Positions 1 through 64,000 of a stretch of 64,000 bases of DNA are shown one piece after another. Position 1 is the first letter of the stretch, and every line of letters begins with the position of its first letter. The translations under genes were made by a program, and so were the position numbers. The notes beneath the pieces were generated by a model. It was not told the origin of the DNA, did no database searches, and was given only the letters and a program-made list of their open reading frames with translations. This DNA is from an uncultured virus (IMG/VR IMGVR_UViG_3300031132_000335) (taxonomy: Duplodnaviria > Heunggongvirae > Uroviricota > Caudoviricetes), in IMG/VR virus record IMGVR_UViG_3300031132_000335. One strand, 5' to 3'.

Positions 1-12
1 AAGACATGGCGT

Positions 13-678
13 TCAGATGAACGTCTGCGTGACTCCGACGACCTGAATCTTGCTGGCACGGGCAAGCATGCTGACGCTGCCAGGAGTCTCCCAACGGTTC
101 AGGTACCGAACTGCATCGTACACCTGAATCTCGTTCTTCCAGTCCACAGGCTCCCAGGAGTCAGCGTATCGCTCATCCGAGTTGGTGTGAGTCGGCCAAA
201 CGTTGTCGTCAGAAAGGATGTGGGAGGCCAGGTTTGTGTCCTCCATGAGCGTCACTTCGTACAGGTAGAACTCGCCGCCCTTGTGGTCCAGGGAGTCGTG
301 GATTCGCTCAATCGCTGCGCTCTTCGTTCCCAGGTGCACGTAGAGGTCACCTTCACGTGGGTTGCGGACAAGGATGTTCTTGTCCCAGTTCTCCCGCGTC
401 GTTGCGTGGTACCAGACGGTGGTACGCGCAGCGCTGTCCTCAATCAGTTCAGCGGAACGGCTCTCCACGTCAACCTTGCAGTTGTCAGGGGTGAACTCAC
501 GGAAGGTGTTGTCTGCATCGTTCTCGCAGTGCTGGCAGGTGATGAGGTCGCCGTAGGCTGCCAGGTCCCGCTTGGTTCCCCACTCACGGCGGGTCATGTG
601 CTTACCGCAGTTCTCGTTCGGGCAGATGAGGCCGACAGTGTTCGGTTCAGCGACTGCGTAGTCCGTGAGGATGGTCAT
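13..678 (-). CDS. Zn-ribbon + ART-like domain protein, family A copy 1
   Basis: CPNxxC...CxxC, then WYHAT..HLG..ER..YLYEV..YLNRWExPGSVS; paralog of 1975-2628 and 4697-5368; ATG 6 nt after TATGCT -10 box. Confidence 0.75.
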   Translation of the reverse strand: MTILTDYAVAEPNTVGLICPNENCGKHMTRREWGTKRDLAAYGDLITCQHCENDADNTFREFTPDNCKVDVESRSAELIEDSAARTTVWYHATTRENWDKNILVRNPREGDLYVHLGTKSAAIERIHDSLDHKGGEFYLYEVTLMEDTNLASHILSDDNVWPTHTNSDERYADSWEPVDWKNEIQVYDAVRYLNRWETPGSVSMLARASKIQVVGVTQTFI

Positions 679-682
679 GAAT

Positions 683-713
683 TCAGCATACACGTTTCCT
701 GACGGGTTGCAAC
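683..713 (-). promoter_or_regulatory. sigma70-type promoter TTGCAA-N17-TATGCT, leaderless
   Basis: Near-identical -10 region CGTGTATGCTG also precedes the genes starting at 2628, 3112, 3639 and 5368. Confidence 0.7.
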
Positions 714-738
714 CCGCCAGCTCAGATTCGTTCCAACG

Positions 739-780
739 AAAATGAGGCTACAACCCTGAGTTGGGTTGTAGCCTCATTTT
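739..780. terminator. bidirectional intrinsic terminator
   Basis: AAAATGAGGCTACAACC / GGTTGTAGCCTCATTTT inverted repeat. Confidence 0.75.
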
Positions 781-792
781 TTGACTGAGCAG

Positions 793-1287
793 TTAGCGGA
801 CCAGCGTCAACTTTTCCTGCTTCTCCGTCTCCTGAGCCAAGAGGAGGTTTGCCTCAGCCAGAGCCGTCTCCGCCTCAAACTGCTCCTCAGGGGTCTTTGC
901 GCGCTTCACGGCAGTGGTGTTGAAGATGACAGCCATCTTCGCCTGCTCCATGTTGAAGGAGACGTACGGAGCGTACTGGTCGTCCAGGGTCTGAGTGGTG
1001 CCCGTCTCGGTAAACCACGCGATGCTGTCAAACTCCTCCGAAAGCTCGGTGGGGGTGTACTGCTTGCCGCTCAGGAGCGAAGTGAACGCCTTGATGTCCG
1101 TGAACTCGGGGAACTCGGAATCACCACTGTCCAGCGCGTCACCTGCCATCGGAAGACGAGCGATGATGTCACCGCCACGACCGCCGCTGCGGTACATCTC
1201 AAAGGTGGCACAGGTGCGGTTGACAGCGGGGATGACGTGGCCGTTGTCCAGGATGGTCGGGTGGAAGATTGCAGTTGCGGTAGCCAT
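793..1287 (-). CDS. hypothetical protein
   Basis: SD GGAGAG before MATATAIF; upstream promoter; typical codon usage. Confidence 0.7.
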   Translation of the reverse strand: MATATAIFHPTILDNGHVIPAVNRTCATFEMYRSGGRGGDIIARLPMAGDALDSGDSEFPEFTDIKAFTSLLSGKQYTPTELSEEFDSIAWFTETGTTQTLDDQYAPYVSFNMEQAKMAVIFNTTAVKRAKTPEEQFEAETALAEANLLLAQETEKQEKLTLVR

Positions 1288-1831: not shown

Positions 1832-1974
1832 GTGTTCAGTCTACGGAGGACTACTGACATTCGGGCAGAGGAGGAAGAACTCAGGACACCCACGACATCA
1901 GGTGAAGCCACTGATGTCGTGGGTGTTGAAAAAAGACATGTGAGCTGATGCGGTAACCTCAGCGGACTGAGGTC

Positions 1975-3112: not shown

Positions 3113-3267
3113 GATGTTCTCCTGAGGTTGTTCGGGAGGCCGTTCCTCCCTGATAGGTCCAGCATACACGCCCAGATCGGAAACGCAACTGCTGTGAGCA
3201 ACTTTTTTCACAAAAAGACGAGGAGGGGCAGAGCTTACAGGTAGCTCTGCCCCTCCTCGGTGAGTTC

Positions 3268-5368: not shown

Positions 5369-5459
5369 GGGTTCAGCATACACGTTTGGATCAGGGATGC
5401 AAGACGGAACCCCTACCATTTTTGAGCTTGGTAGGGGTTCCGTAAAAAGACAATAGGTG

Positions 5460-6436: not shown

Positions 6437-6592
6437 GAACGGAACCAGAGGAGGCAAGGGATTCATTTCTCTTGCCTCCTCTGTCGTAAAAAGACATTTC
6501 TTTTATCCTGTTGCGTAACCCAGGCTGATCGTGTACGCTGAACACATCAAGGCATGAGAGATGCCTTCCCCAACCTCAGGAGAGAACACGCG

Positions 6593-7335: not shown

Positions 7336-7749
7336 ATGACCTTCTACCACGGCACAAACGCTGACCTGGCCATCGGAGACATCTTGGTCCCTGGTGCGAA
7401 TTTGGGCATGTCTGCGAACCACGGACGCAGTGAGCATGTCTACATGACGTGGGATGGCTTTACGGAGGACGCTGATGAGGGCTACCGTGTAGCAATGACG
7501 GAAGCGCTCGCTTGGGCGCGAACCGCCTGCATGGTGGCAGAGGATGAGCAAGACGCAGAAGACCCTGAGGCGTTCGTGTACATCGTGGAGCCGCTGGGTG
7601 CGGTGGAACCTGATGGAGCTATTGACGAGCAGGTTGGTGAGGAAGCACGACGCACCAGCTCAGCTCGCATCATCGGTGTGGTTGACCCATACGACTTGGA
7701 GCTGTACCTGCCAAAGCCATGCTACGGCAGCACGTACCTGCCCGTGTAA
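7336..7749 (+). CDS. Arr-like (rifampin ADP-ribosyltransferase family) ART
   Basis: FYHGTxADLxIGDxLxPG, HVYMT, VYIVEPLG, RIIGVV match Arr family motifs; leaderless. Confidence 0.75.
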   Translation: MTFYHGTNADLAIGDILVPGANLGMSANHGRSEHVYMTWDGFTEDADEGYRVAMTEALAWARTACMVAEDEQDAEDPEAFVYIVEPLGAVEPDGAIDEQVGEEARRTSSARIIGVVDPYDLELYLPKPCYGSTYLPV

Positions 7750-7764
7750 AAAGACATTGAGTTA

Positions 7765-8631: not shown

Positions 8632-8745
8632 ATTCCTCCTATCATAGCATGTCAACTGAGCTACGTCAACATTTATCTGCATTTTTGCTTCGTCTTAAAA
8701 AGACGAAAAATAAGAACTAAAAGACGAAGCTGGTAAAGTGAACTC

Positions 8746-9195
8746 ATGAATATTTTTCACGAAGTTGCTCCCGAGCATGCCGTCTCTGACACTCTGACTA
8801 TCCTAAGCCTGATCGTAGGTGGGTTAGGGCTTCTTTCCATTGTAGCTTATATCCTTCTACAATGGAAAAAGAAGCCTTATGTATGGGCAATTGCTACTGG
8901 TTTCGCCGCGTTAGGAGTTGCTGTTGTTTTAGCTGGCACTTTTTCTGTTATGACCTCGGTTGAACAAGTAGCAGCGAGAGAAAAGACGAGTTCTTCCTTG
9001 CAGTCATGGTCCAAAGACAATTACGGAATTGAACTGTCCAGAAACAATGCTGATGATTTGACAGGTTTGGAGCAAAGAGCAAAAGCTGTCGCTGTTGACT
9101 ACAACGGTAAACCGACTGTTGTCCAGCTTGTTGACTATAAGGACGGGTACATCCTCGTGAACAATGAAAACCAGGCTGTTCTTCCTCAAAAGTAA
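8746..9195 (+). CDS. membrane protein (2 TM)
   Basis: Two hydrophobic helices; leaderless TAAAGT-N6-ATG. Confidence 0.7.
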   Translation: MNIFHEVAPEHAVSDTLTILSLIVGGLGLLSIVAYILLQWKKKPYVWAIATGFAALGVAVVLAGTFSVMTSVEQVAAREKTSSSLQSWSKDNYGIELSRNNADDLTGLEQRAKAVAVDYNGKPTVVQLVDYKDGYILVNNENQAVLPQK

Positions 9196-9395: not shown

Positions 9396-9459
9396 GCATA
9401 CCCTCCTGCCAGCTGTTAGCGCTGGCGTAAAAAGACACGACTTGAAAGAAGACGAAACC

Positions 9460-51343: not shown

Positions 51344-51347
51344 AAGC

Positions 51348-52556: not shown

Positions 52557-52680
52557 GAGGTCTTCTCCCTTGGTTGGTTCGCAAGGTCTCTCTTCCTTGC
52601 TGGTTCCAACACTACACACTGAGGTGCCCGACCGCAACCAGGATGAGGAAAATCAGCGAACTGACAGGTTCGCTGCATGG

Positions 52681-52935: not shown

Positions 52936-53077
52936 CTTCTTTCTTTTTGAAAGTCTCTTTGTTAGCAGGATACCCTGTATCTCCATTTTTCGCAACAGGC
53001 TAAGGAGAAGGACGATAGTAATTAGCGGATTCTTTCAGCGCGCAAGAACTAATGTAACCGTAGGAGAAGCAAGAACG

Positions 53078-53590: not shown

Positions 53591-53607
53591 TCGAAATCAA
53601 TTGATAA

Positions 53608-53653
53608 GACAGAGGAGGGGAGCTACCAAGACTGGTAGCTCCCCTCCTCTGTC
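53608..53653. terminator. GGGGAGCTACC-family bidirectional terminator
   Basis: Inverted repeat between convergent genes. Confidence 0.8.
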
Positions 53654-53661
53654 AATGTTGC

Positions 53662-54618: not shown

Positions 54619-54761
54619 ATTCGCGTTTCGGGTTAGAGGAAGGTCTATAGGTGGTTATCGGTGCTCAAAAGTTTTTCCTCACCCCTACATGTGGGGACAA
54701 GCCCAGGTAACTCCCAGGTTTCTCGTGTTGCTTCTGACCTGATCCTGTGCTACGCTAAGGA

Positions 54762-55016
54762 TTAGCAAGAAGGTGAACTACTAAATGCTACTCGCTTCTT
54801 GTCACGAGTTATAGAGCGCAAAACCTTACAGTTCCATAAGCGAGACATACGAACCAAGCGGCTTAGTAGCAGGCCACCCCACCTCCTGTCGGATGCATAC
54901 GACAGGGATATGCGAAACACCAAGAGTGGAAGGTAAGCCTGGTTCAAAAAGTCTCCACTGCGGAAGTAGCCACTCAGGCAAGCATATCCCCACCTCAATG
55001 GTGGGGTTCCTTGTTT
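54762..55016 (+). ncRNA. candidate ~250-nt structured RNA
   Basis: Own promoter TTGCTT-N17-TACGCT, no substantial ORF, nested helices, terminal hairpin. Confidence 0.5.
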
Positions 55017-55054
55017 AATCGGGTCTTTTTCTTCTCATAAGGTACAATGAGAGT

Positions 55055-55303
55055 ATGAATGAAGCTCCTGTCACCGATCAGCAGTTACTCCTTACGGGCA
55101 AGCGCGTGTATAAGGAGAGCGTAGACGATGGTGGAATGTTCAACAGTACTCTCCTGGTCATTGTAGACGAGACTCCCAATGTTGAGAAGCCGTTCCTAGG
55201 AGTGGTGCAGGACGGCTGGGGTGGCGGTGTTGGACGACGCTTCGCTACGGAGAGTGAAGCAATTCGCTACGTGAACGACAAGTTTGAAGAGCTGCACGGG
55301 TAA
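55055..55303 (+). CDS. hypothetical protein
   Basis: Leaderless TACAAT-N6-ATG. Confidence 0.65.
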   Translation: MNEAPVTDQQLLLTGKRVYKESVDDGGMFNSTLLVIVDETPNVEKPFLGVVQDGWGGGVGRRFATESEAIRYVNDKFEELHG

Positions 55304-55321
55304 CAGGCTAAGGAGAAGGAC

Positions 55322-55774
55322 ATGTCAAAACTTATCAGTCAAAAAGAGCAGAACCTCAGGGTTGAGGAAGGGCTTGAACGGATCATTGAGGTACTCAAAG
55401 AAGAGAACGCACCAGTTCCCATTGACTACCTTCTCGAAACAGCAGCAAAGCGGGTCAAACGAGCTGTCATGATTCCCTCAGACCTCCGAGTGTCTCTGGC
55501 AGAAGGGGAGATGGACGGAAAGCTCCACCTTGACCATCAGGAGCGCGTGGCGTTCTTAGAGAAGGTAGACCGTCGCACAGAACACCGGTACTCCATTTTT
55601 GACGATGTGTTGAAAGCGCATGATGGACAGCTCCCGATGGATGAATTCTTTACCGTCTCATCCCATGAGTCAGGTGAACCAGCAGAACAGCTGGTCGGCG
55701 CGTTCCTTCGGGGAGTTGCCAAGAAAAAATACGTCATTGATTATGTCCATGCAACAGTACGAGCAGGAGAGTAA
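55322..55774 (+). CDS. hypothetical protein (possible tandem winged helix)
   Basis: Paralog of 55780-56229 (PV.I...LET.A.RV). Confidence 0.7.
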   Translation: MSKLISQKEQNLRVEEGLERIIEVLKEENAPVPIDYLLETAAKRVKRAVMIPSDLRVSLAEGEMDGKLHLDHQERVAFLEKVDRRTEHRYSIFDDVLKAHDGQLPMDEFFTVSSHESGEPAEQLVGAFLRGVAKKKYVIDYVHATVRAGE

Positions 55775-55779
55775 CACCT

Positions 55780-56229
55780 ATGTCCCAAGCCATTATGAAA
55801 CGATCCGAGCAGGTCAAGCTTTCCCAGCAAATTGACCAGGAGATTATCTCGCTGCTGACCGAAGCTGATGTTCCTGTAGATATCAATGAAGTGTTGGAAA
55901 CCGTAGCACAGCGCGTGCATCGCATCTCAAATGATGTCGTCTCTACCCTGTCGAGCGGGATCGCTCGGAAAACCTACCAGTGCGATTACACCAAAGGATG
56001 GGTGTTCATTGACGGAGCTGACGAGCGGAACGAACTCCGTCAAAAAGTTCTGGAGCAGGAGCTTACTCGCCAAGGTGGGACTGCTGACATGCGCGAACTG
56101 ATGAAGGCCACAGTCAGCAAAGTAGACGACAAGCAGAAGCTGGTCAGTTCTTTTCTCCTGGGTGTGAAGCAAGGCAAGTTCAGCGTTGATTACTTTGAAG
56201 CGCAAGTCAGTCTGCTGCGCTCAGCCTGA
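55780..56229 (+). CDS. hypothetical protein
   Basis: Paralog of 55322-55774. Confidence 0.7.
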   Translation: MSQAIMKRSEQVKLSQQIDQEIISLLTEADVPVDINEVLETVAQRVHRISNDVVSTLSSGIARKTYQCDYTKGWVFIDGADERNELRQKVLEQELTRQGGTADMRELMKATVSKVDDKQKLVSSFLLGVKQGKFSVDYFEAQVSLLRSA

Positions 56230-56364
56230 TTCTGTAGAGGCATCGGAGGAAAGACAGGCTGAACTTCTTCGCTCTGCCTGTTGCATGTTCGTCCCTGAAC
56301 TGTTACTCTTGAACTATCAAGCGGATCAGAGACACTGACCTGCGTCTTTTTCAAGGAGAACATC

Positions 56365-56889
56365 ATGGCTGTTTTGGTTATTGACGGAATGCGAGTTGCC
56401 TCAGGAGCTTCTTGGGGTAACCGTCGCACCCGTACCCGCCAGGAGTTCTTCACGCTGACGCGTTCCAACCGTCAGTTCGTCGTTCGCTCCACCCACCGCG
56501 CAGAGCAGCGCTTCCTGGCGGAGGCGGAGTTCGTGGCGTTCTTCCGTTCCACGTTCGGTGGATGGCGTGCAGAAATCCTCGCCGCTGAGGCTGAGCAGGT
56601 GCGCCGTGAGGCTGCTGAGCGTCAGTACGATGAGGCAGCGGCGTTCAACTCCTTCCTGGACCAGGTGGTTGCCGCAGGTATTGCTACGCAGGAAGAGGCT
56701 ATCCGCTTCACTCTCGGTGTAGCTCGTGATGCGGCTGAGGTTGCTGAGCAGCGCGGCTATGAGCGTGGTGAGATTGACGGTTATGGCCGCGGTTACGAGC
56801 AGGGTTCTGCACGTGACGAGTATGCAGTCCACGGCGTTCACGACGATGAGGACTTTGACTACCACCAGTGGGAGACTGAAAACTGGTGA
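56365..56889 (+). CDS. hypothetical protein
   Basis: Paralog of 57048-57563 (NRRTRT..EFFTL.R.NRQFVV, FFRSTFGGWR). Confidence 0.75.
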   Translation: MAVLVIDGMRVASGASWGNRRTRTRQEFFTLTRSNRQFVVRSTHRAEQRFLAEAEFVAFFRSTFGGWRAEILAAEAEQVRREAAERQYDEAAAFNSFLDQVVAAGIATQEEAIRFTLGVARDAAEVAEQRGYERGEIDGYGRGYEQGSARDEYAVHGVHDDEDFDYHQWETENW

Positions 56890-57047
56890 GCCGTAGCACC
56901 TGATGAGGAGGGCCTTGACATGACGTTGAGACCCTCCTCATTTTTCTTTTCGTCAACTGGTTGACAAGATCGTATCCAGTCTGTACACTGGTGATATCAG
57001 GGCTGGGAAGAGAGACCCCGCCCGCTAACTTTTCAAGGAGAGAAATC

Positions 57048-57563
57048 ATGCCTGTTGTTGTTGACGGTCACCGTCTTATCACTGGTTCGTCCTGGTCAAA
57101 CCGTCGTACCCGTACGAACCGCGAGTTCTTCACGCTTCGCCGTCAGAACCGTCAGTTCGTTGTGTCGTCTACCCGTTACGGTCGTGGGCAGTCGTTTGCT
57201 GATGAGGCTTCTTTCTCTGACTTCTTCCGTTCCACGTTCGGTGGATGGCGTGATGAGGTTGAGGTTGCTGACGCGCAGGAACGTGAGCGTGCGGCTGCTG
57301 TTGCACGCCAGGAGGAGCTGGACCGTCAGCACGAGGAGGCTATCCAGCTGAACGACTTCCTGGACCGTGTGGTTGCTTCTGGTGCTGTCTCCTTGGAGGA
57401 GGCTGTCCGCTTCACCGCTGGCTTCGCTCGGGAGGCGGCTGAGGTTGCTCGTCAGGCAGGCTATGATGACGGGCGTAGCGACGGCTATGACTCGGGTTAC
57501 AACGCTGGTTGGGAGTCCGCTTCGGAGGACCACTACTGTGAGCATGATGACTACGACTACTGA
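57048..57563 (+). CDS. hypothetical protein
   Basis: Paralog of 56365-56889. Confidence 0.75.
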   Translation: MPVVVDGHRLITGSSWSNRRTRTNREFFTLRRQNRQFVVSSTRYGRGQSFADEASFSDFFRSTFGGWRDEVEVADAQERERAAAVARQEELDRQHEEAIQLNDFLDRVVASGAVSLEEAVRFTAGFAREAAEVARQAGYDDGRSDGYDSGYNAGWESASEDHYCEHDDYDY

Positions 57564-57656
57564 TTGAGGTCGGTAGAAATGAGGGTGCGACTTCTTGAAT
57601 GAGGTTGCACCCTCATTCACGTATTCAGCAGATATTTTACAGTGGAGGTATTGATC

Positions 57657-57815
57657 GTGAAGCATTCAGGTATGGTGACGTTTTACGCACGCACAGGTTA
57701 TAAGGGAGTCTGCTCGTGCGGGTGGAAGGGAAAGGACGTAAGCGTTCAGAAGGATGCAGCAAAGACGCTGAAAGTGCACTTGTACCCGAAAGCACAAGTC
57801 AAATACGCTGCGTAA
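57657..57815 (+). CDS. small Zn-finger-like protein (not in ORF track)
   Basis: SD GGAGG, GTG start; H...CSCGW...H. Confidence 0.55.
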   Translation: MKHSGMVTFYARTGYKGVCSCGWKGKDVSVQKDAAKTLKVHLYPKAQVKYAA

Positions 57816-57869
57816 AAACTAAGGAGGGGAGTTACAGTAACTGGTAGCTCCCCTCCTTTATCTCTGCGC

Positions 57870-58259
57870 TCACTCCTGGTTCAGGAACCTGAACTGGGAA
57901 CCACCCTCAGTGTAGTATTCCTTCTGCATCATACGAAGACCCGTGTTCATCACGTCATCCTGTGCGACTCCAACCTCCACAGCGATGAAGAGGCTGTCCT
58001 CATCCAGGAAGTACACATCAAACGTGGTCGCGTCAGTAGCGTTCCGAATGGCGAACAGGGCGTACTCAACAGGAACGAGGTCCTGCTGGTACTTCACCAC
58101 ATGCAGGTCCTCACGGAACTTGGAGACAACCGCATCCACGCTGCTGTGACCGAGGATGATGCGAGCAAGGTGGCGGGTGTCGCTACCAGGGGTCTGCTCA
58201 ACGTACTCCTGGTACAGCCCGTGTGCGGTGTACGGAACCTTGTCGTAATCAAGGAACAT
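57870..58259 (-). CDS. hypothetical protein
   Basis: SD AGGAG. Confidence 0.7.
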   Translation of the reverse strand: MFLDYDKVPYTAHGLYQEYVEQTPGSDTRHLARIILGHSSVDAVVSKFREDLHVVKYQQDLVPVEYALFAIRNATDATTFDVYFLDEDSLFIAVEVGVAQDDVMNTGLRMMQKEYYTEGGSQFRFLNQE

Positions 58260-58383
58260 GGGGTTCTCCTGTGGTTGGGTGATGGTTGAACTACGATCAG
58301 TCTACACAGTATCTGCGGAAACGCAAGCCTACAAATAGAAGGAAGCTCCACAAGACAGGTTTCTTGTGGAGCTTCCTTGTGTC

Positions 58384-58797
58384 TCAGGCTTCCTGGATAC
58401 GGATGAGGCGGTTAGAACGGTCCGTGGTGGTGTCCGTCACGCCTTCCTTAGAGACAGTGGTGATGCTGGTGAGGTCCCGAGTAGTGGTAACATCAGTCAC
58501 TTCCCAGCCCTCATGGTAGATGTGGTCGCCAACCTTCACCTGCTCAGCACGGATAAGGTTCGGCTCTTCCACGAAAGTAACGTCTTCCGCCTTGTAGCCT
58601 GCACGGGCGCGAATGGTGAACTTGTTGTGAGCGTCGCAGTCGTAGAGGGAGTAACCGTTGTCTACGGCCAGACCAAGGTACACCCGACCTTCATGGAGAA
58701 TGACCTTCGTGATGGTGTTACGAAGATGCAGGCCCAGCTTGTCTCCAACGCGGAGCTGGTCTGCGCGGACTTCCTGGACGGCGGTCATTGTGGTCAT
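58384..58797 (-). CDS. hypothetical protein with internal repeat
   Basis: VRADQLRVGD / IRAEQVKVGD. Confidence 0.7.
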   Translation of the reverse strand: MTTMTAVQEVRADQLRVGDKLGLHLRNTITKVILHEGRVYLGLAVDNGYSLYDCDAHNKFTIRARAGYKAEDVTFVEEPNLIRAEQVKVGDHIYHEGWEVTDVTTTRDLTSITTVSKEGVTDTTTDRSNRLIRIQEA

Positions 58798-58963
58798 GAT
58801 GTCTTCTCCTTGTTTAAAAGTTGACTGTCTACATCAGCATACACGGTATGAACAAGATGCGCAACTCTTTCTCATTTTTCTTTTTGTCTTCTTGACAAGA
58901 ACTGCGGCTTGGCATAGCTTAGGGGATAAGACATCAATCCGCTGATAAAACGAAAGGTTCATC

Positions 58964-59221
58964 ATGAGTAAGTTCCAGAAAATTCTGTACGGCATCATGG
59001 GTATTGTCGCTGTTGCAATGATTAGTTTCACCGTCTACGCGTATGCAGTGCAGGGGTATGACGCTGGTCATCGCATGGTGCACTTAACAGGAGCTGCCCT
59101 TATTCTAACCCTCGGTATTGACCTCATCGTGATGATGGTTGAGTTCAGACAGAAGGAAGCTCAGAATGCCACTCCTCTCCTGTTTGAATGGGATGAGGAT
59201 ACGAATACGGTTAGTCTGTAA
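58964..59221 (+). CDS. membrane protein (2 TM)
   Basis: Hydrophobic helices; SD GAAAGG. Confidence 0.65.
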   Translation: MSKFQKILYGIMGIVAVAMISFTVYAYAVQGYDAGHRMVHLTGAALILTLGIDLIVMMVEFRQKEAQNATPLLFEWDEDTNTVSL

Positions 59222-59352
59222 TGCCTATTCGTCAGGAAGTCAAAGGGACAAACCATATGACTTCCTGACGAATTTTAAATTATTTTCCAAACATACCCCC
59301 AAAAGAGGGTCATGCTACCGATACTTTCTTCAACACAATGAAGGAGGGCATC

Positions 59353-59547
59353 ATGTCATTTGAACCAGCAGTTGAGAAGCTTCCAACGGGAGCCATCGTT
59401 ATCATTTCAGGTGAGTATCAACCAGTTGATGAGCGTGGGAATGAGACAGAAGCCCACACCACATTTTTCGGGTTCGGGGAGACTACTCCTCAGCTTGGAC
59501 ACACAGCAGAGTGGAAGCTTGCGGAGGCTTTTGACTTTGCCGCCTAA
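59353..59547 (+). CDS. hypothetical protein
   Basis: SD AAGGAGG. Confidence 0.6.
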   Translation: MSFEPAVEKLPTGAIVIISGEYQPVDERGNETEAHTTFFGFGETTPQLGHTAEWKLAEAFDFAA

Positions 59548-59627
59548 TCCTTAGGGCGTATGGAGTAGCGAGAACGAAAATGAGGGGCGAACCAGAATCA
59601 AATGGTTCGCCCCTCATTTTTTTGTAT

Positions 59628-60179
59628 TCAGGAGTGGTACAAGAATGCTACCTTGTAGCGGTCGTGAATTGCATTCGGCTTCGGACGGGAAGTGCGCACT
59701 TTGAAAGAATTCGTAGTATCCACGCTCGTCGGAACATAGAAAATCAACTCGGAGTCATCGCACCCAAGACGAAGCAGCTCCTGGGTAAGGGCGCGCTCCA
59801 CATTCGGCAGAGCATTATTCGCCCATTCCAGACCAAAGTAACGCGTCGCGTTGTTACGAGTTGAGGAAATTGCTGCGATGTCTTCCTCTGACAGTTCTAC
59901 CGAAACCTCATGAACGGTGACAATGGTGTCTTCATCTCGGCATACTCGGAGAACAATGCTCTGACCATCAGCCAGCAGAGTACTTTCATGGCGACCAACG
60001 TAATGCTGAGCCTGCTCAGCAGTCATCAGATTCTCAGGTCCGTTCACGGCTCCTGAGCGCTCATCTTCGTACACAGTGGAAGACTTTTCCCACTGCTTTA
60101 CCGCATCTTCCAGAGCATAGCTGCGCATGTAGTGATGCGGTTGATGCTGAATTGTCATTTCGACAGGGTACAAGCTCAT
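59628..60179 (-). CDS. hypothetical protein
   Basis: SD AAGGAGAG. Confidence 0.65.
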   Translation of the reverse strand: MSLYPVEMTIQHQPHHYMRSYALEDAVKQWEKSSTVYEDERSGAVNGPENLMTAEQAQHYVGRHESTLLADGQSIVLRVCRDEDTIVTVHEVSVELSEEDIAAISSTRNNATRYFGLEWANNALPNVERALTQELLRLGCDDSELIFYVPTSVDTTNSFKVRTSRPKPNAIHDRYKVAFLYHS

Positions 60180-60291
60180 GAAGCTCTCCTTTTCTCTCAG
60201 CTGCTACAGTAGCAAGAGCCTCTGACATTCCCTAACTTGTCTCAATTCTGAGACGGAATGCGAAAGTGTCTCAGAATTGAGACGAAACCTA

Positions 60292-60696
60292 TCAATAGAG
60301 GGTTTCGTAGCTATACGTTTCAATGTCATCAGCAGGCGTTCCATACAGTTTCTGAACCTTCTTGCAAGCTTCATCACCGTTCTCAGCTGCAATGTAGCGC
60401 CAAATTGAGTCTTCCCCTAGCACTAAGAACATTGTCATGTGTTCCAAAGGTGCAGGGACTTCTGACTCCACGATGGAAGCTTTGAGAACTTCCTCAATGG
60501 CTCGCTCTGTGGTCATACCATAATCCAGGTATGCATCCATGAATCTGTCTACGTCAACAAGGGCGTAGCGCTTTGGCTTCTCATTCAGATTGAGACGCTC
60601 TTCCAACTGCTGAGCAAGGTCGTTCTGTCCCATGTCTCGCAGGCGTTCTGCCATCGCCTGAGCTTCCTGCTTATCCGTTGCGTCCCGAGCCATCAT
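60292..60696 (-). CDS. hypothetical protein
   Basis: Start overlaps the upstream stop. Confidence 0.65.
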   Translation of the reverse strand: MMARDATDKQEAQAMAERLRDMGQNDLAQQLEERLNLNEKPKRYALVDVDRFMDAYLDYGMTTERAIEEVLKASIVESEVPAPLEHMTMFLVLGEDSIWRYIAAENGDEACKKVQKLYGTPADDIETYSYETLY

Positions 60697-61151
60697 GCAC
60701 GCTCCTGAATGAAACGCTCAGCGCACACCATGACCGTTTGAGCCTTCAACCCGAACTGAGTCAGAGTGTAGCTATCACTCTCCGCATAATGTGCCAGCTC
60801 TTGGATGGAGGAGAAGACGTTTAGCGCGTCCAGAGCTTTATCGCCCAGGTCAGCGATTTCCAGAAGATGGAACTCAAACTCAGGGTTGTGGTTGACCATC
60901 TCTAATGCGACCTGAGCCACCTCAGGATGCTTAGCCAGAACCTGATTCGTAGTGCCAAGGTACTGCTGGAAGGCAGCGGGAAGAGTCACGAAGTCAGGAC
61001 GAGCCTTAACAAGATTTTTTGCGTCAGCATGCAGATTTGAGACGAGCCAGTGGAACTCTTTGTCCTCCTGGATTGCGGAGAAAAGCTCAGCAAGGCTAGC
61101 TGTTGATTGATCGGAAGCAGACATAAAAATCCTTACATTTGATGATTGCAA
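60693..61151 (-). CDS. hypothetical protein
   Basis: SD GAGGAG, TTG start. Confidence 0.6.
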   Translation of the reverse strand: MQSSNVRIFMSASDQSTASLAELFSAIQEDKEFHWLVSNLHADAKNLVKARPDFVTLPAAFQQYLGTTNQVLAKHPEVAQVALEMVNHNPEFEFHLLEIADLGDKALDALNVFSSIQELAHYAESDSYTLTQFGLKAQTVMVCAERFIQERA

Positions 61152-61218
61152 TATCGCTCCTCATCATAACACATCTGCTGGGAAAAGACAACCTTGCTTG
61201 CCACGTTAGGAATCCCTC

Positions 61219-62211
61219 ATGACCAACATGCACATTGCACTCCGCGGCCCACGTAAAGATGAGTGGGTATCTTGTGACGCAAAGAAGCGTTGCCGAAACA
61301 GCCGGCTACATGTTACTCCTGAACAACTCCACGCTATTCAAGCATGGAAAGGCAGCAACACAGCAATCACTGAAAGCGATGTTCTCCATTACACGAAAGA
61401 ACTCAACTCTGGCGACCCTATTACCTTGATCGAAGCTGGACGAGCTCATCAGGAACGTGAGCGCCGGTTGCAGGAAATCCAGAAGCAGTTCCTCCCAGTT
61501 CAAAAAGTTCGTGAGAGTACCGCCCGTCAAGTTACAGCGGAGCAAGCTTCTGCTTGGGTGAACTCGCTCACTGAGGAGGAGAAGGAGGCTCTGACGGATT
61601 TCAGCCGGTGGGACTCAAACGAGACGAACCTCTACTTCTACAAAGACGATTTCCGTGAAGCGTTCGACAGTTATAACCTGCTTGCATACCCCGGTGCATA
61701 CACCTCAAAGTCTGAACCGGAGCAAATGAAGTTGATGAGAGCGTACCGTCAAAAACTTCTAGACCGTGTAGCTCATATGGATGCAGCTCTAGGTAAAGAG
61801 ACCCCATTCTCCGATGGTGTCCTGTTGTACCGAGGAGATGATGTCCCGTACACAGAAAATGAGAGTAAAGACATGCTGGAAGTCATTCGTGCAGCGTATC
61901 CGATTGGTTCCACCTACTCCCGTAGTTCATTCATGTCCACTTCATCCAATCCAGTAGTTGCTGGAGAGTTCGCTCGGTCGTTTGTGTTTGAGATTCTCAC
62001 TGACCGAGGCGGACCTATCCAGGATTTAGCTCATGTGCAACGAGAAGAGGAAGTCATCCTCCCTCGTAATGAAGAGTACGAAGTTGTAGCTGTGCACCCA
62101 AACGTAAAGTACCGCGACACTCAGTACAATTGGCGTGTGGAGACGATGGTGGAAAAAGACATCAAAGAGTACACAGTCGTGCAGTTGGTGTCCAAGCGAC
62201 TCCTGCCTTGA
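61219..62211 (+). CDS. HCCH module + VIP2-like ADP-ribosyltransferase
   Basis: MHIALRG...SCDAKKRCRNSRLH; LTEEEKEAL, LYRG, FMSTS, REEEVILPR. Confidence 0.85.
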   Translation: MTNMHIALRGPRKDEWVSCDAKKRCRNSRLHVTPEQLHAIQAWKGSNTAITESDVLHYTKELNSGDPITLIEAGRAHQERERRLQEIQKQFLPVQKVRESTARQVTAEQASAWVNSLTEEEKEALTDFSRWDSNETNLYFYKDDFREAFDSYNLLAYPGAYTSKSEPEQMKLMRAYRQKLLDRVAHMDAALGKETPFSDGVLLYRGDDVPYTENESKDMLEVIRAAYPIGSTYSRSSFMSTSSNPVVAGEFARSFVFEILTDRGGPIQDLAHVQREEEVILPRNEEYEVVAVHPNVKYRDTQYNWRVETMVEKDIKEYTVVQLVSKRLLP

Positions 62212-62250
62212 ATCATGATAAGATGATGTCTGCATTTTGAACAGACGGAG

Positions 62251-62484
62251 ATGATGATGGCACTATGTGATGCTTGGTATGCAGTTACTGCTCATGCAGG
62301 TGGAAGTGACCTTGTTCAGTGTGTGAAACCGATGAGCCATGAAGAACTGGTGGAAGGTAAGCACTACTCTCGTACTGAGATTGCACGAAAGAAGTCCCAC
62401 CTTTGGGTTTCACGAGATGGCACAGATAGAGAAAGCTGGTCTGAGTCTGAGACGCATTCTCATCGTGAGCCGTTGCCTTCTTGA
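62251..62484 (+). CDS. hypothetical protein
   Basis: SD GGAG. Confidence 0.5.
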   Translation: MMMALCDAWYAVTAHAGGSDLVQCVKPMSHEELVEGKHYSRTEIARKKSHLWVSRDGTDRESWSESETHSHREPLPS

Positions 62485-62538
62485 CGGAGGTAACCAAATA
62501 TGCTATGATATTGACATCACATCTATGAGGAGAAAATC

Positions 62539-62742
62539 ATGGTTATCGTCTACATCATTCTAGCGCTTTCCGTTCCTGCCATCGCTTATTACGTCCACTT
62601 GGCTTCTATTGCAGCTTCTGAGAGCAAAGTGAAGGTTGCTGAATTGCAGACTCAGGCAGCTCGGGAGCAGGCAGCTGCTGACCTGGCGCGAGCAGAGGCT
62701 GATAAAATGAAGGTGGAAGAGATGCGCTTGCAGCGTCTCTGA
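62539..62742 (+). CDS. small membrane-anchored coiled-coil protein
   Basis: SD GAGGAG; N-terminal TM. Confidence 0.65.
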   Translation: MVIVYIILALSVPAIAYYVHLASIAASESKVKVAELQTQAAREQAAADLARAEADKMKVEEMRLQRL

Positions 62743-62819
62743 GATGAAGAGCGTAGGGCAGGTAAACTTTTGAACATGAAAGTTTGCCTGCCTTTTCATT
62801 TGAGCTGATATACTTTGTA

Positions 62820-62975
62820 ATGGCGGGTCAACATTCGCCTGTCTTAGATGCTGCTTCTCCTACGCAGGAATCGCATCGCTAAGAGCAAGGTCTTCCACTC
62901 AGATCGTGTTGATAAGTTCAACCTTCATGACAGAGTACACATGGTTGGGCGTAGGGCAATCATGGCAGGAAAATC
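62820..62975 (+). promoter_or_regulatory. structured 5' leader (putative pseudoknot)
   Basis: TATACT -10 upstream; stem TCTTAGATGC/GCATCGCTAAGA with loop CCTACGC complementary to GCGTAGG near the SD. Confidence 0.45.
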
Positions 62976-64000
62976 ATGACGAAAAATACGAACAAGAAAA
63001 AGCGTGTCCGCAAGCAGATGGAACGCTCACAGACGAATTACCTTTCAGCAGCTCGGGTCTTACAGCAGAAAAGCCCTACGAAGCGGGTTCCCACTCCTTG
63101 GAGTCTCCTCAACAAGAGTCTACTTGGTGGTGGGCTAACAGTTGGTGTGCATGCTATCTCTATGCCAGAGGAACTGCATGGGAAGATGACCCGTGAAGCT
63201 TTTGACCAAAGAGCAATAAATGTACTTTTCTTGGAAACGGGCTACGAATACCGGGACAAGGAAAGCTATCAGAACTTTACAGGGTCTTCACGCTATGTGC
63301 AGGCTCTCAAAGATAACCCTTCTGGTAAAGCCAAAAACATCACTACGCATTACGGCTTTGAGACAATTGATATTCCTCTGGATGAATGGAGCAAGAACAT
63401 AGAGGCCGAACTTGTGAACATGGCTCCTCGTCTGCTCGTCATTAGCAGCCGAAGCTATGAAGGCATTAACCAGGACCATGGAGCTGTCACCCAAGTTTAC
63501 ATTGAGCAGTTGAAGCGTATCTCTCACCGATTTCAAATTCCAGTTGTCGTTGTCTACGGCACTAATGCTGAAAAATATACGGTGGAAGATATCTCTCAGG
63601 AATCACTAAATTCTTCTATCATCGGTATTCCTGATGAGAATGAGACGCAAGTTGTCGCAGCGTTTGAAGTCGTCTCGAATAACGAACCAGTAGTTGCTAC
63701 CCCTTGGGATAGTTTGAATACACTATTGAAAGGCGGTTATCGCGCTGGGTTCCATACCTTGACTTTGACAGAAGAGCAGCGACTCGGAGCCGTACGGGCA
63801 CTTCAAGACAACAAAGAAGTTCGCGTTCTACTTGTCTCAGACTGGAAAGACAACCAGTATTTATCCATGTCCCTGGCAACCAGAGGAGAACAAGAGCAGC
63901 TGTGGATTCATAAGCCCCAAAACCACAAGTACCCTGTACTAGACGAGTGGGTTGACAACCTTGTTGCTGACTTCAAAGTCTATGAACCAGACATACTGGT
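62976..64000 (+). CDS. partial ORF with tandem degenerate RecA/DnaB/KaiC-like domains (not in ORF track)
   Basis: Open to the window end; VPTPWSLLNKSLLGGGL and VATPWDSLNTLLKGGY; LKRISHRFQIPVVVV; no Walker A. Confidence 0.65.
   Translation, partial: MTKNTNKKKRVRKQMERSQTNYLSAARVLQQKSPTKRVPTPWSLLNKSLLGGGLTVGVHAISMPEELHGKMTREAFDQRAINVLFLETGYEYRDKESYQNFTGSSRYVQALKDNPSGKAKNITTHYGFETIDIPLDEWSKNIEAELVNMAPRLLVISSRSYEGINQDHGAVTQVYIEQLKRISHRFQIPVVVVYGTNAEKYTVEDISQESLNSSIIGIPDENETQVVAAFEVVSNNEPVVATPWDSLNTLLKGGYRAGFHTLTLTEEQRLGAVRALQDNKEVRVLLVSDWKDNQYLSMSLATRGEQEQLWIHKPQNHKYPVLDEWVDNLVADFKVYEPDIL

What the first reader, a model, noticed from the sequence alone, without database searches (positions are those of the whole stretch)
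1..64000. Strand-polarised AAAAGAC motif at gene boundaries, independent of gene direction
Seen: AAAAGAC, usually followed by A or G, on the + strand at or near gene boundaries at 1931, 3213, 5445, 6489, 7749, 8698, 8719, 9430, 12259, 13208, 19583, 21600, 23224, 27828, 31703, 34255, 34818, 35259, 36123, 38286, 39404, 40598, 43189, 43231, 44479 and 61183, plus AAAGGAC variants. I found the reverse GTCTTTT only about 4 times (~36164 within a palindrome, ~40448, ~55023, ~56344). It flanks + genes, - genes and convergent pairs alike, so it follows the DNA molecule rather than transcription. Forward copies thin out at 45-61 kb, where two reverse copies lie. Established: KOPS (FtsK), Chi and Streptomyces TraB clt repeats are polarised short motifs. 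Inference: an orienting signal for a translocase, packaging/injection motor or primase, or a cassette-insertion scar.
Basis: partly seen in the sequence, partly recalled or inferred. Interest (0 to 1): 0.72.

Follow-up and report, generated by a model that had tools for sequence, protein, structure and literature searches.

The report
One-strand AAAAGAC signal, giant phage-like element
A strict seven-base word, AAAAGAC, sits almost only on one DNA strand between the genes of a family of uncultivated, roughly 0.8-0.9 million-base phage-like elements from leaf surfaces; it is conserved and under selection, ordinary promoters and terminators do not explain it, and it most resembles the one-strand nicking sites known from a few small phages.

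Summary
AAAAGAC occurs 34 times on + and 4 times on - (about 10 expected in total) and is the most strand-skewed k-mer and the commonest intergenic 7-mer. A distant relative (TPM protein 30% identical, 789-kb contig) shows 16:1; 154 unrelated loci show 244:223. The core is nearly invariant between close relatives (391/392) while flanks are 96% identical. One-mismatch variants are not skewed.

"Independent of gene direction" is only partly right. Density is even across (+,+), divergent and convergent gaps but two- to threefold lower in (-,-) gaps. No - gene carries a sense copy, although + and - genes share promoters, codon usage and size.

Minus-strand terminator U-tracts explain at most 10 of 50 sites. 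Strain breakpoints do not track the motif.

Best reading (about 0.3): recognition site of a strand-specific DNA enzyme, as with the one-strand nick sites of phage tf. Rivals: a replication-polar tracking signal, or rightward-only transcription control.

The whole-replicon polarity plot could not be made, so the mechanism stays open.

The parts
1931..1937 (+). AAAAGAC copy in a (-,-) gap; 17-pair hairpin 2 nt to its left
3213..3219 (+). copy whose GAC is the foot of an 18-pair hairpin; doubles as the U-tract of the minus-strand terminator of gene 3268-3720
5445..5451 (+). copy directly 3' of a 15-pair hairpin, in the divergent region between a - gene promoter (about 5376) and + gene 5801; removed by a 1179-nt deletion in run X9
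6489..6495 (+). copy in a (+,+) gap, 52 nt after a + stop codon; hairpin 4 nt to its left
7749..7755 (+). copy overlapping the TAA stop of + gene 7336-7749; convergent gap
8698..8725 (+). two copies (8698, 8719) in the divergent gap upstream of + gene 8746
8981..8987 (+). copy inside + ORF 8746-9195
9430..9436 (+). copy in the 5' leader of the TyrRS gene, downstream of a sigma70-like promoter (9216-9246) and 26 nt before ATG 9463
11073..11079 (+). copy in a (+,+) gap, 165 nt upstream of a sigma70-like -35 box at 11238
12259..12265 (+). copy 10 nt after the stop of RNase H-like paralog 1 and 26 nt before the ATG of paralog 2; left edge of a paralog deletion in run X16
12656..12662 (+). copy inside + gene 12292-13203
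13208..13214 (+). copy 4 nt after the stop of RNase H-like paralog 2, followed by a hairpin of 20 or more pairs
14628..14634 (+). copy inside + gene 13909-14925
19583..19589 (+). copy in a (-,-) gap, abutting a 16-17-pair hairpin (minus-strand terminator 19583-19546) on its 5' side
21600..21606 (+). copy inside a roughly 60-nt repeat (hairpin plus TTGACAAAAGACGG), first of two
23224..23230 (+). copy 33 nt upstream of an SD plus ATG at 23264
24146..24152 (+). copy inside - gene 23729-24268 (antisense to it)
27828..27834 (+). copy in a convergent gap 11 nt after a + stop, followed by a 14-16-pair two-way terminator hairpin
31468..31474 (+). copy inside - gene 31230-31628
31703..31709 (+). copy in the divergent gap 154 nt upstream of the TPM-domain gene
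34255..34261 (+). copy abutting ATG 34262; stays with the downstream + gene across a gene replacement (33403-34230) relative to L001 and L002
34818..34824 (+). copy inside the second roughly 60-nt hairpin repeat
35259..35265 (+). copy between an SD-like GGAAGG and ATG 35266
36123..36170 (.). 20-pair palindrome whose two arms carry a forward (36123) and a reverse (36164) copy; two-way terminator of a convergent pair
37041..37047 (+). copy inside - gene 36974-37291
38286..38292 (+). copy in a (+,+) gap 23 nt after a + stop; 15-pair hairpin 5 nt to its right
39404..39410 (+). copy in a (+,+) gap; hairpin 11 nt to its left; the only copy changed in a close relative (AAAAGAT in L002)
40598..40604 (+). 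copy in a divergent gap, 25 nt before an SD plus ATG
43189..43237 (+). two copies (43189, 43231) in the divergent gap upstream of + gene 43264
44479..44485 (+). copy in a (-,-) intercistronic gap at the 5' end of - gene 44014-44487
44486..61182 (.). 16.7-kb stretch with no forward copy (two reverse copies at 55023 and 56344); same composition, gene size and strand mix as the rest
40448..40454 (-). reverse copy inside - gene 39895-40515
61183..61189 (+). copy in a divergent gap 29 nt upstream of ADP-ribosyltransferase-like + gene 61219
62154..62160 (+). copy inside + gene 61219-62211

Best explanation
AAAAGAC(R), with weak upstream preferences (G at -3, T at -4 and -7, G at -15), is the recognition site of a sequence- and strand-specific DNA enzyme encoded by this giant actinobacterial phage-like element. 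My leading candidate is a site-specific nickase of the kind that makes 'localized single-strand interruptions' in phages T5, phiKMV-like phages and tf. Shown: the word is strict, selected, kept on one strand at about one per 1.3-1.9 kb in two distant lineages, placed between genes, and able to overlap any other intergenic feature. Inferred: late in infection the enzyme cuts the + strand at these sites, so that packaged DNA carries regularly spaced nicks that are resealed after entry. In a genome this large, such nicks could act as swivels that release twist during packaging or ejection. Copies are rarer inside minus-strand operons because there the + strand is the template and the transcript would read GUCUUUU, which is harmful or terminating. 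I hold this at about 0.3. That some strand-specific DNA-level reader exists (nickase, primase or tracking motor together) I hold at about 0.55.
For: Strand exclusivity: 34:4 in the window, and 16:1, 15:1 and 14:1 in L004, L003 and L005, against 244:223 in 154 control loci. Strictness: one-mismatch variants are not skewed. Selection: core identical at 391/392 positions against 2691/2800 in the flanks, over 56 non-independent site pairs, P=1e-5. Site-by-site mapping: 16/16 copies kept in L001 and 14 of 15 aligned in L002. Turnover: by my manual tally, about 4 of roughly 20 orthologous boundaries share a copy between the window and L004, while density and polarity persist. The motif overlaps stop codons, SD-ATG spacers, a 5' leader, hairpin stems, loops and U-tracts alike, as expected for a site read on DNA and not for a positioned RNA or promoter element. 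Density is even across (+,+), divergent and convergent gaps (1.8, 2.0 and 2.7 per kb). + and - genes share sigma70-type promoters (7 and 7), codon usage, GC3 and length. Precedent: phage tf has 14 proven nicks at 5'-TACT/RTGMC-3', all in the top strand of a genome with two convergent arms; variants substituted at positions 1, 3 and 4 are not nicked; relatives keep the sites on one strand; the distribution is uneven (PMC3517423, passages and section 14). In the tf record I find 14 top and 0 bottom, 5/14 within 10 nt of a CDS boundary against 0.94 expected (P=0.0016), and 12/14 in the arm whose genes lie on the nicked strand. These peculiarities match those seen here.
Against: No nick was observed: only assembled contigs could be laid, and these show no molecule ends. 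No nickase is recognisable among the 102-103 window ORFs scanned, and the rest of the genome was out of reach. It is not shown that the element is a packaged phage. In tf, 9 of 14 sites lie inside genes, whereas here about three quarters are intergenic, which a nickase does not obviously require. A 16.7-kb stretch lacks the motif. Four reverse copies exist. The hairpin adjacency (19/35 against 13.3 expected, P=0.0005) has no counterpart that I know of in nick sites. The antisense-type excess in (-,-) gaps is not significant against its mirror class (8/60 against 2/32, P=0.48). So all strand asymmetry could in principle come from sense copies beside + genes.
Confidence: 0.3

Rival explanations
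1. Replication-polar tracking signal: the word is read by a machine that travels rightwards with the fork or along the replicon. It could be a lagging-strand priming site (primer starting opposite the C, next to SSB-free hairpins), or a KOPS/SRS/TraB-TRS-like cue for a DNA pump, or a Chi-like site. Polarity would flip at the origin and terminus.
For: The motif lies 5'->3' on the strand that is G-rich after gene orientation is averaged out: replication-like GC skew +0.022 (+0.034 at third codon positions) in the window and +0.072 (+0.143) in L004, where the intergenic DNA is also T-rich. Same polarity and density in a distant lineage despite site turnover. Spacing of about 1.3-1.9 kb is in the Okazaki-fragment range, and 45% of intervals fall in 850-1450 nt against 21% for random choice of gaps (P=0.007, but the range was chosen after seeing the data). 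Hairpin adjacency P=0.0005 fits priming at SSB-free hairpins (G4 and ssi origins, recalled). KOPS, SRS and TRS are 8-mers (recalled).
Against: Known KOPS and Chi words are not confined to intergenic DNA (recalled), whereas here density is 1.42 per kb between genes against 0.21 per kb elsewhere. The interval coefficient of variation equals random. A 16.7-kb gap with normal composition is hard to square with an obligatory priming site. Known primase sites are trinucleotides (recalled). 60 of 102 genes lie on the - strand, the opposite of the usual leading-strand gene bias. No polarity switch could be looked for.
Confidence: 0.25
2. Rightward-only transcription control: an asymmetric protein site (stoperator-like elongation block or insulator) or a short phage-specific promoter or gene-start element (T4-late-like) that acts only on + strand transcription.
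For: Sense copies flank + genes in 27 of 76 gaps but - genes in 2 of 104 (P=6e-10). About 10 of 50 copies lie 19-37 nt before a + start codon. Copy 34255 stays with its downstream gene across a gene replacement. A motif-free 16.7-kb domain fits a regulon. Cluster A mycobacteriophage repressors bind more than twenty asymmetric 13-mers in short intergenic spaces, and reversed sites do not repress (PMC9283540, passages). The likely host lineage is actinobacterial.
Against: Convergent gaps, which have no + gene downstream, carry the highest density (8 observed against 3.5 expected), and divergent gaps, which have no + gene upstream, carry 2.0 per kb. So neither a promoter nor a 3'-end signal fits all sites. 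In L004, 9 of 14 intergenic copies have a - gene to their right. Copies sit between SD and ATG (34255, 35259). Stoperator orientation follows transcription on both arms, whereas here none of the 60 window and 23 L004 - genes has a sense copy, yet + and - genes share sigma70-type promoters (7 and 7), codon usage and size. Orthologous genes do not keep the motif above chance (manual tally).
Confidence: 0.2
3. RNA-level punctuation: the + strand is transcribed in long units and AAAAGAC is a processing or protein-binding site in that RNA.
For: Copies punctuate + gene blocks at starts, between genes and at ends. Several lie in hairpin loops or beside hairpins.
Against: Copies are often base-paired in stems (3213, 36123, L004 19299). 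Copies occur in (-,-) gaps and inside - genes. - mRNAs would need the same processing but have none. No RNA data are available.
Confidence: 0.06
4. Recombination scar or cassette boundary (integron-like or transposon footprint).
For: The region is a mosaic of one- to three-gene units that differ between strains. One deletion in run X16 runs from copy 12259 to just past copy 13208.
Against: That deletion lies between two paralogs with homologous 3' ends. Another deletion (4270->5450) destroys a copy. About 6-7 of roughly 40 breakpoints lie within 25 nt of a copy, against about 5 expected from shared intergenic location (my tally). No inverted-repeat att-like structure is conserved around copies. 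Purifying selection acts on the core.
Confidence: 0.05
5. By-product of minus-strand intrinsic terminators.
For: In 10 of 50 copies a strong hairpin lies directly to the right, so the - transcript would read hairpin-GUCUUUU. 4 of 13 strong minus-strand terminators in 1-40 kb use it.
Against: 40 of 50 copies have no such geometry (8 have the hairpin on the other side, 4 are in loops, the rest have none nearby). None of the 6 strong plus-strand terminators uses GTCTTTT, so terminators as such do not need the word. The conserved GAC has no role in a U-tract.
Confidence: 0.03

Closest known systems
Localized single-strand interruptions (nickase sites) of phages T5/BF23, phiKMV-like phages and LUZ24-like phage tf (5'-TACT/RTGMC-3'; PMC3517423)
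   Same: A short strict asymmetric word found on one strand only, irrespective of gene direction. Near-variants are inactive or not enriched. Strand and approximate density are conserved in relatives. Distribution is uneven. In tf, by my own check, there is enrichment at gene boundaries (5/14 against 0.94 expected) and in the arm whose genes share the strand (12/14). Density is 1 per 3.3 kb overall in tf (about 1 per 2.1 kb in its + arm) against about 1 per 1.9 kb here.
   Different: No nick has been demonstrated here. The word is different and shorter (7-8 nt core). Three quarters of copies are intergenic, whereas in tf 9 of 14 lie inside genes. The genome is about 20 times larger, and it is not yet shown to be a packaged phage. 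No candidate nickase has been seen.
KOPS (FtsK), SRS (SpoIIIE), Chi (RecBCD/AddAB) and Streptomyces TraB clt/TRS repeats
   Same: Polar 5-8-mers over-represented on one strand, co-oriented with the G-rich strand, and maintained by selection while individual sites turn over.
   Different: Those words occur throughout coding DNA at roughly 1 per 5-12 kb, and TRS repeats cluster in a clt locus. This word is about sevenfold denser between genes than within them, is A-rich, and has a 16.7-kb gap. A switch at origin or terminus, and any cognate pump or nuclease, were not testable.
Stoperators of Cluster A mycobacteriophages (L5 gp71-type repressor; PMC9283540)
   Same: An asymmetric site bound (there) by a monomer, with more than twenty copies in short intergenic spaces of an actinobacteriophage and orientation-dependent action. 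About one site per 2 kb in L5 is my recollection.
   Different: Stoperator orientation follows the direction of transcription on both genome arms. Here none of 83 - genes has a sense copy, and copies are common in convergent gaps. Stoperators are 13-mers.
Short phage-specific promoters (T4 late TATAAATA; giant-virus AAAATTGA) (recalled)
   Same: An 8-nt strict word that is the commonest intergenic k-mer; a subset lies 19-37 nt before start codons.
   Different: Those words lie upstream of genes on whichever strand the gene is. This one is absent from - genes, frequent where no + gene follows, and sometimes sits between SD and ATG.

Membership tests
Phage nickase sites (localized single-strand interruptions) | Recognition word confined to one DNA strand irrespective of gene direction | tested here: met
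   34:4 in the window; 16:1, 15:1 and 14:1 in relatives; copies occur in all four gap types and inside genes of both strands. tf itself: 14:0.
Phage nickase sites (localized single-strand interruptions) | Strict word; single substitutions not used | tested here: met
   Tested by proxy only: 21 one-mismatch variants show little or no strand skew, and the core is identical at 391/392 positions between relatives.
Phage nickase sites (localized single-strand interruptions) | Physical nick (3'-OH/5'-P) at the site in virion DNA | not testable with these tools
   Only Logan contigs could be laid; no molecule ends were reported (table 6).
Phage nickase sites (localized single-strand interruptions) | Phage-encoded nicking function | not tested
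   No nuclease family found among the 102-103 window ORFs. The rest of the roughly 880-kb record was unreachable.
KOPS / SRS / Chi-type replichore-polar words | Skew co-oriented with the replication-type strand asymmetry | tested here: met
   Replication-like GC-skew component is positive on + in the window and in L004. This is a local result only.
KOPS / SRS / Chi-type replichore-polar words | Polarity switches at origin and terminus | not testable with these tools
   No whole genome is held, and the records behind L001 and L002 are not searchable.
KOPS / SRS / Chi-type replichore-polar words | Distributed through coding and non-coding DNA alike | tested here: not met
   1.42 per kb in intergenic DNA against 0.21 per kb elsewhere.
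Streptomyces TraB clt (TRS repeats) | Clustered direct 8-bp repeats in a clt locus next to traB | tested here: not met
   Copies are dispersed over 44 kb, with only two close pairs (8698/8719 and 43189/43231). No FtsK/TraB domain in the window ORFs.
Intrinsic terminator U-tract (minus strand) | G+C-rich hairpin immediately followed, on the - strand, by the T-run that contains the word | tested here: not met
   This geometry holds for at most 10 of 50 copies and for 4 of 13 strong minus-strand terminators.
Stoperator (Cluster A mycobacteriophages) | Asymmetric sites in short intergenic spaces | tested here: met
   38 of 50 copies are intergenic.
Stoperator (Cluster A mycobacteriophages) | Orientation correlates with the direction of transcription | tested here: not met
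   0 of 60 window - genes have a sense copy within 200 nt upstream. GTCTTTT occurs in 0 of 60 (-,-) gaps, while AAAAGAC occurs in 8 of 22 convergent gaps.
Promoter (sigma70 or short phage-specific) | Positioned upstream of the genes it serves, on either strand | tested here: not met
   16 of 38 intergenic copies have no + gene downstream. Upstream-of-+ count is 22 against 18.1 expected (not significant). Separate sigma70-type promoters serve both strands.
Integron attC / cassette boundary site | Imperfect inverted repeat with conserved core sites at each cassette junction; gain and loss of units exactly at the sites | tested here: not met
   No conserved inverted repeat around copies. Breakpoints are not enriched at copies.
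REP/BIME/MITE-type intergenic repeats | A conserved repeat body (usually a palindrome) shared by the copies | tested here: not met
   Neighbouring hairpins all differ in sequence. Only two copies share a roughly 60-nt body. Rfam finds only the tRNA.
Primase recognition site | Lies on the lagging-strand template at Okazaki-scale spacing throughout the replichore | tested here: inconclusive
   The strand agrees with GC skew. Spacing regularity is weak (CV equals random; a range chosen after the fact gives P=0.007). A 16.7-kb gap argues against it.

The most novel reading that the evidence does not exclude
A family of about 0.8-0.9 Mb actinobacterial giant phage-like elements marks its gene boundaries with a one-way 8-mer that orients a DNA-tracking machine over the whole replicon: a replisome primase, a pump, or a packaging or ejection motor. 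This would be a KOPS-like polarity code confined to intergenic DNA. Being A-rich in a high-G+C host, it would also distinguish the element's DNA from host DNA.
Probability: 0.2. Interest if true: 0.85.

Novelty: new variant of a known kind. Interest (0 to 1): 0.6.

Why it matters
One-strand words that ignore gene direction are rare. Those known either steer DNA motors (KOPS, Chi) or mark the still unexplained nick sites of a few small phages. Here such a word is the commonest intergenic 7-mer of elements larger than any published phage genome, found in leaf-surface and litter samples of at least 15 studies. If it is a nick site, it extends an unexplained phage trait to giant genomes and suggests a mechanical role, namely swivels during packaging of nearly a megabase. 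If it is a tracking signal, it would be the first such code placed at gene boundaries. Either way it gives a simple, testable handle (read ends, strand-specific breaks, binding protein) on the biology of uncultivated giant elements.

Tried and rejected
1. Whole-replicon polarity plot. No genome is held for the window, the records behind L001 and L002 are not searchable, and a region request with a locus id was not accepted. I did not pursue this further.

2. Relatives in annotated collections. Megablast of 20 kb against phages and plasmids gave no match. Three IMG/VR scans with window proteins found no relative. The GTDB genome scan found only unrelated TPM-domain genes, which I used as controls.

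3. RNA evidence. No RNA holder was listed. The one run guessed as RNA was reported as probably DNA. All four runs laid were contigs, so no starts, ends or strands were available.

4. Regular spacing. The coefficient of variation of intervals equals random choice of gaps; only a range chosen after the fact is enriched. Not used as evidence.

5. A substitute polar word in the motif-free 44.5-61.2 kb stretch. TACGTCA and GGCGTTC (8:0 there) are scattered in coding DNA with no shared context, and only SD-type words recur in its gaps.

6. Strand-segregated sigma70 promoters (a T4-like early/late split). A crude scan gave 9/42 against 10/60, and GTTGACA-type promoters are 7 and 7. Rejected.

7. Two classes of genes by strand. 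No difference in length, GC, GC3 or codon usage.

8. Motif as part of a -35 or -10 box. No partner hexamer at promoter spacing.

9. Known RNA family. Rfam finds only tRNA-Leu.

10. Literature. 'phyllosphere' with 'megaphage' gave 2 papers, and the five terms 'intergenic', 'same orientation', 'strand-biased', 'phage genome', 'motif' (at least four required) gave 29; neither listing showed a description of this motif or element.

11. Earlier notes of this scan. None on this motif or this DNA.

Full report
OBSERVATION. AAAAGAC occurs 38 times in the 64-kb window, 34 on + and 4 on -. Dinucleotide shuffles give 10.04 +/- 3.10, and none of 100 reached 38. Eight more exist, mostly inside ORFs. The split 34:4 has binomial P=6e-7. 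AAAGACA (32:2) and AAAAGAC (34:4) are the two most strand-skewed 7-mers in the window, and the extensions AAAAGACA (24:1) and AAAAAGACA (15:0) are the most skewed 8-mer and 9-mer. 31 of 34 copies are followed by A or G. Pooled with the distant relative L004 (n=50), the flanks add weak information: G at -3 in 37/50, T at -4 in 23/50, T at -7 in 26/50, G at -15 in 29/50, and a purine after the core in 47/50. The 21 one-mismatch variants show little or no skew (AAAGGAC 10:6, GAAAGAC 9:3, most others near 1:1), so the core is strict.

WHAT THE DNA IS. I called genes with a simple codon-usage score on ORFs of 50 aa or more: 102 genes, 42 on + and 60 on -, about 79% coding. These calls are crude, and every count below depends on them.
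- Of 102 ORFs, 13 match a Pfam family. The matches include TyrRS, two tandem RNase H-like paralogs, two ADP-ribosyltransferase-like genes, an Arr-like gene, YitT, a metallophosphoesterase, a TPM-domain protein, a ParA-like ATPase and an RNA ligase. A further handful match PHROGs of unknown function.
- There is one tRNA-Leu.
- One PHROG-only protein has its best hits, at 36-38% identity, in Arthrobacter, Mycobacterium and Gordonia phages.
- The nearest named TyrRS sequences, at 59-62%, are from Leifsonia, Microcella, Agromyces, Arthrobacter and similar Micrococcales.
- Nothing similar is in the phage, plasmid, IMG/VR or GTDB collections.
- The metagenome scan found near-identical DNA (96-98% protein identity) inside contigs of 878,612 and 883,042 bp, at different offsets. 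This is what a circular or permuted genome would give (inference). It also found a distant lineage (TPM protein 30% identical) in contigs of 61,745, 788,683 and 70,405 bp. TyrRS hits add a 776,559-bp contig.
- Runs holding the DNA are phyllosphere, leaf-litter and plant metagenomes from at least 15 studies.
I read the element as a giant phage-like element of leaf-surface Actinomycetota. Phage against plasmid is not settled.

THE POLARITY IS A CONSERVED, SELECTED PROPERTY.
- Relatives: L001 and L002 give 16:2 and 14:2. The distant L003, L004 and L005 give 15:1, 16:1 and 14:1, in loci oriented by the shared gene.
- Controls: 154 unrelated loci (1.93 Mb) give 244:223.
- Close relatives: all 16 window copies in the shared stretch are kept in L001 and 14 of 15 aligned in L002.
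- Over 56 site pairs (not independent), the 7-mer core is identical at 391/392 positions against 2691/2800 for the +/-25-nt flanks (P=1e-5).
- Between the two lineages 10-11 genes are colinear orthologs. By my manual tally, only about 4 of roughly 20 orthologous boundaries carry a copy in both, which is about chance. Density between TyrRS and YitT is nevertheless similar (9 copies in 14.4 kb against 4-5 in 5.3 kb). Sites turn over; density and orientation are kept.

WHERE IT SITS. AAAAGAC is the commonest 7-mer of intergenic DNA in both lineages (24:3 in the window, 14:1 in L004). In the window, 24 of 34 copies are intergenic, 1.42 per kb against 0.21 per kb elsewhere.

Gaps carrying at least one copy, window plus L004:

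| Gap type | AAAAGAC on + | Mirror word GTCTTTT on + |
|---|---|---|
| (+,+) | 13/32 | 2/32 |
| (-,+) divergent | 6/22 | 1/22 |
| (+,-) convergent | 8/22 | 1/22 |
| (-,-) | 8/60 | 0/60 |

- Sense copies therefore flank + genes in 27/76 gaps and - genes in 2/104 (P=6e-10).
- Per kb, the window density is 1.8, 2.0 and 2.7 in the first three gap types and 0.6 in (-,-) gaps.
- Weighted by gap length, copies are depleted in (-,-) gaps (8 against 16.3 expected, P=0.008). They are enriched in convergent gaps (8 against 3.5, P=0.02) and downstream of + genes (22 against 13.8, P=0.01). They are not enriched upstream of + genes (22 against 18.1, not significant).
Inside genes the split is 4 in + genes and 3 in - genes, against 1 reverse copy, too few to decide.
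- There is no fixed distance to start or stop codons. Copies overlap a TAA stop (7749; L004 1690), lie between SD and ATG (34255, 35259; L004 394), lie in the TyrRS leader downstream of its promoter (9430), or lie 19-37 nt before a start (about 10 of 50).

TERMINATORS AND HAIRPINS. Strong hairpins (stem of 12 or more) lie within about 14 nt of 22 of 50 copies: on the left in 8, on the right or overlapping in 10, and with the motif in the loop in 4, all four in L004. Only the right-hand class can be a minus-strand terminator U-tract. Of 13 strong minus-strand terminators in 1-40 kb, 4 use GTCTTTT. None of 6 strong plus-strand terminators does. Adjacency to hairpins is nevertheless above chance: 19 of 35 intergenic copies against 13.3 +/- 1.9 for random placement within the same gaps (P=0.0005).

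PROMOTERS AND GENE CLASSES. A different skewed word, CAGCATACACG (6:0), is the -10 region of a sigma70-type promoter (TTGCA-N17-TATGCT) of a paralogous family of - genes. The next recurrent intergenic word, GTTGACA, forms TTGACA-N17-TAnnnT promoters upstream of at least 7 + genes and 7 - genes. A crude sigma70 scan gives 9/42 against 10/60. + and - genes do not differ in length, GC, GC3 or codon usage (correlation 0.966, within the random-split range). I therefore find no sign that the two strands carry different gene classes, which weakens a T4-like early/late explanation.

RECOMBINATION. Close relatives and four other runs show many one-gene replacements and deletions.
- At the replacement 33403-34230, homology resumes about 25 nt before copy 34255, so the copy belongs to the downstream unit.
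- The X16 deletion 12266->13247 runs from one copy to just past the next, but it lies between two paralogs with homologous ends.
- The X9 deletion 4270->5450 destroys a copy.
- By my tally, 6-7 of about 40 breakpoints lie within 25 nt of a copy, against about 5 expected from shared intergenic location.
The scar reading gets no support. Several breakpoints fall instead in the conserved promoter and 5' region of the paralogous - genes.

STRAND ASYMMETRY AND THE GAP. After averaging + and - genes, GC skew on the + strand is +0.022 (+0.034 at third positions) in the window and +0.072 (+0.143) in L004, where intergenic DNA is also T-rich. The motif thus reads 5'->3' on the G-rich strand. No forward copy lies between 44479 and 61183 (P about 0.001). 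That stretch has the same tetranucleotide signature, similar GC and gene size and the same strand mix (14 of 30 genes on +), and no substitute word.

INTERPRETATION. A word that is strict, selected, one-stranded, evenly dense in three gap types and indifferent to what it overlaps looks like a site read on DNA by a strand-specific enzyme.

The closest documented phenomenon is the localized nick. In phage tf, 14 nicks at 5'-TACT/RTGMC-3' all lie in the top strand of a genome with two convergent arms. Variants substituted at positions 1, 3 and 4 are not cut. Related phages keep their sites on one strand. The distribution is uneven, and the function is unknown (PMC3517423: passages and section 14 read). 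In the tf record I find 14:0, 5 of 14 sites within 10 nt of a CDS boundary against 0.94 expected (P=0.0016), and 12 of 14 in the arm whose genes lie on the nicked strand. These peculiarities match those seen here.

I therefore put a nickase-type site first (about 0.3). A possible role is to provide swivels in packaging a near-megabase genome (inference). Under this reading, the depletion inside minus-strand operons follows because there the nicked strand would be the template and the RNA would read GUCUUUU.

A replication-polar tracking signal (primase, KOPS- or Chi-like) is nearly as likely (0.25). It fits the skew and the turnover, but not the intergenic restriction or the gap. Rightward-only transcription control, stoperator-like (PMC9283540, passages) or promoter-like, comes third (0.2). 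It fits the gap, the actinophage setting and the subset near start codons. It does not fit the convergent-gap enrichment, the L004 layout (9 of 14 intergenic copies with a - gene to the right) or the sameness of + and - genes.

WHAT IS MISSING. I could not plot the motif over the whole replicon, see molecule ends or RNA, or inspect the rest of the genome for a nickase, primase or pump. Supplements of the papers cited were not opened.

NOVELTY. In the two literature searches, and in this scan's earlier notes, I found no description of this motif or of these elements. The largest phage genome I found in print is BF3, 841,704 bp (preprint 10.1101/2025.01.14.633092, part 1 of 2 read). I file the finding as a new variant of a known kind, one-strand genome-wide recognition words, with the mechanism open.

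Noticed in passing
L001 and L002 (contigs of 878,612 and 883,042 bp); L004 (788,683 bp); P0051 (776,559-bp contig): The window belongs to elements whose single contigs exceed the largest phage genome I found in print (BF3, 841,704 bp; preprint read). The two near-identical contigs place the same locus at offsets about 210 kb apart, as a circular or permuted genome would. Whether they are phages, plasmids or something else is not settled.
   Followed up: partly
window 686, 2636, 3162, 3690, 5376, 58837 (all - sense): A paralogous family of - genes shares a conserved sigma70-type promoter (TTGCA-N17-TATGCT) and 5' region. Strain rearrangement breakpoints (3106-3156, 5257-5389, 19298-19335) cluster in or near these repeats.
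   Followed up: partly
window 21550-21615 and 34767-34830: Two copies of a roughly 60-nt element: a hairpin whose stem shows compensatory changes (CCTTCTAC/GTAGAAGG against CCCGCTAC/GTAGCGGG), followed by TTGACAAAAGACGG. No Rfam match.
   Followed up: partly
window 11322-13203: Tandem RNase H-like paralogs (308 and 303 aa, each with an N-terminal extension of about 130 aa). Run X16 carries only one copy.
   Followed up: partly
window 33403-34230: A - strand ORF (33467-34180, 237 aa) with its own terminator replaces a 48-bp terminator segment found in L001 and L002.
   Followed up: partly
window 7336-7749, 13909-14925, 61219-62211: An Arr-like (rifampin ADP-ribosyltransferase family) ORF and two ADP-ribosyltransferase-exoenzyme-like ORFs (Pfam E-values 8e-10, 1e-9 and 6e-15). 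These are family matches only.
   Followed up: no
window 22033-22187: tRNA-Leu(CAA) preceded by a good sigma70-type promoter (TTGACA-N17-TAGGCT).
   Followed up: no
window 9463-10761: The element's TyrRS is 59-62% identical to those of Microbacteriaceae and Micrococcaceae. The element is only 52% G+C, far below what I recall for such hosts, so an A-rich 7-mer should be very rare in host DNA (inference).
   Followed up: partly
phage tf, L160 (HE611333): The proven tf nick sites are enriched at CDS boundaries (5/14 within 10 nt against 0.94 expected), several overlapping start or stop codons, and 12/14 lie in the arm whose genes share the nicked strand. The passages I read in the paper do not mention the boundary enrichment.
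   Followed up: yes
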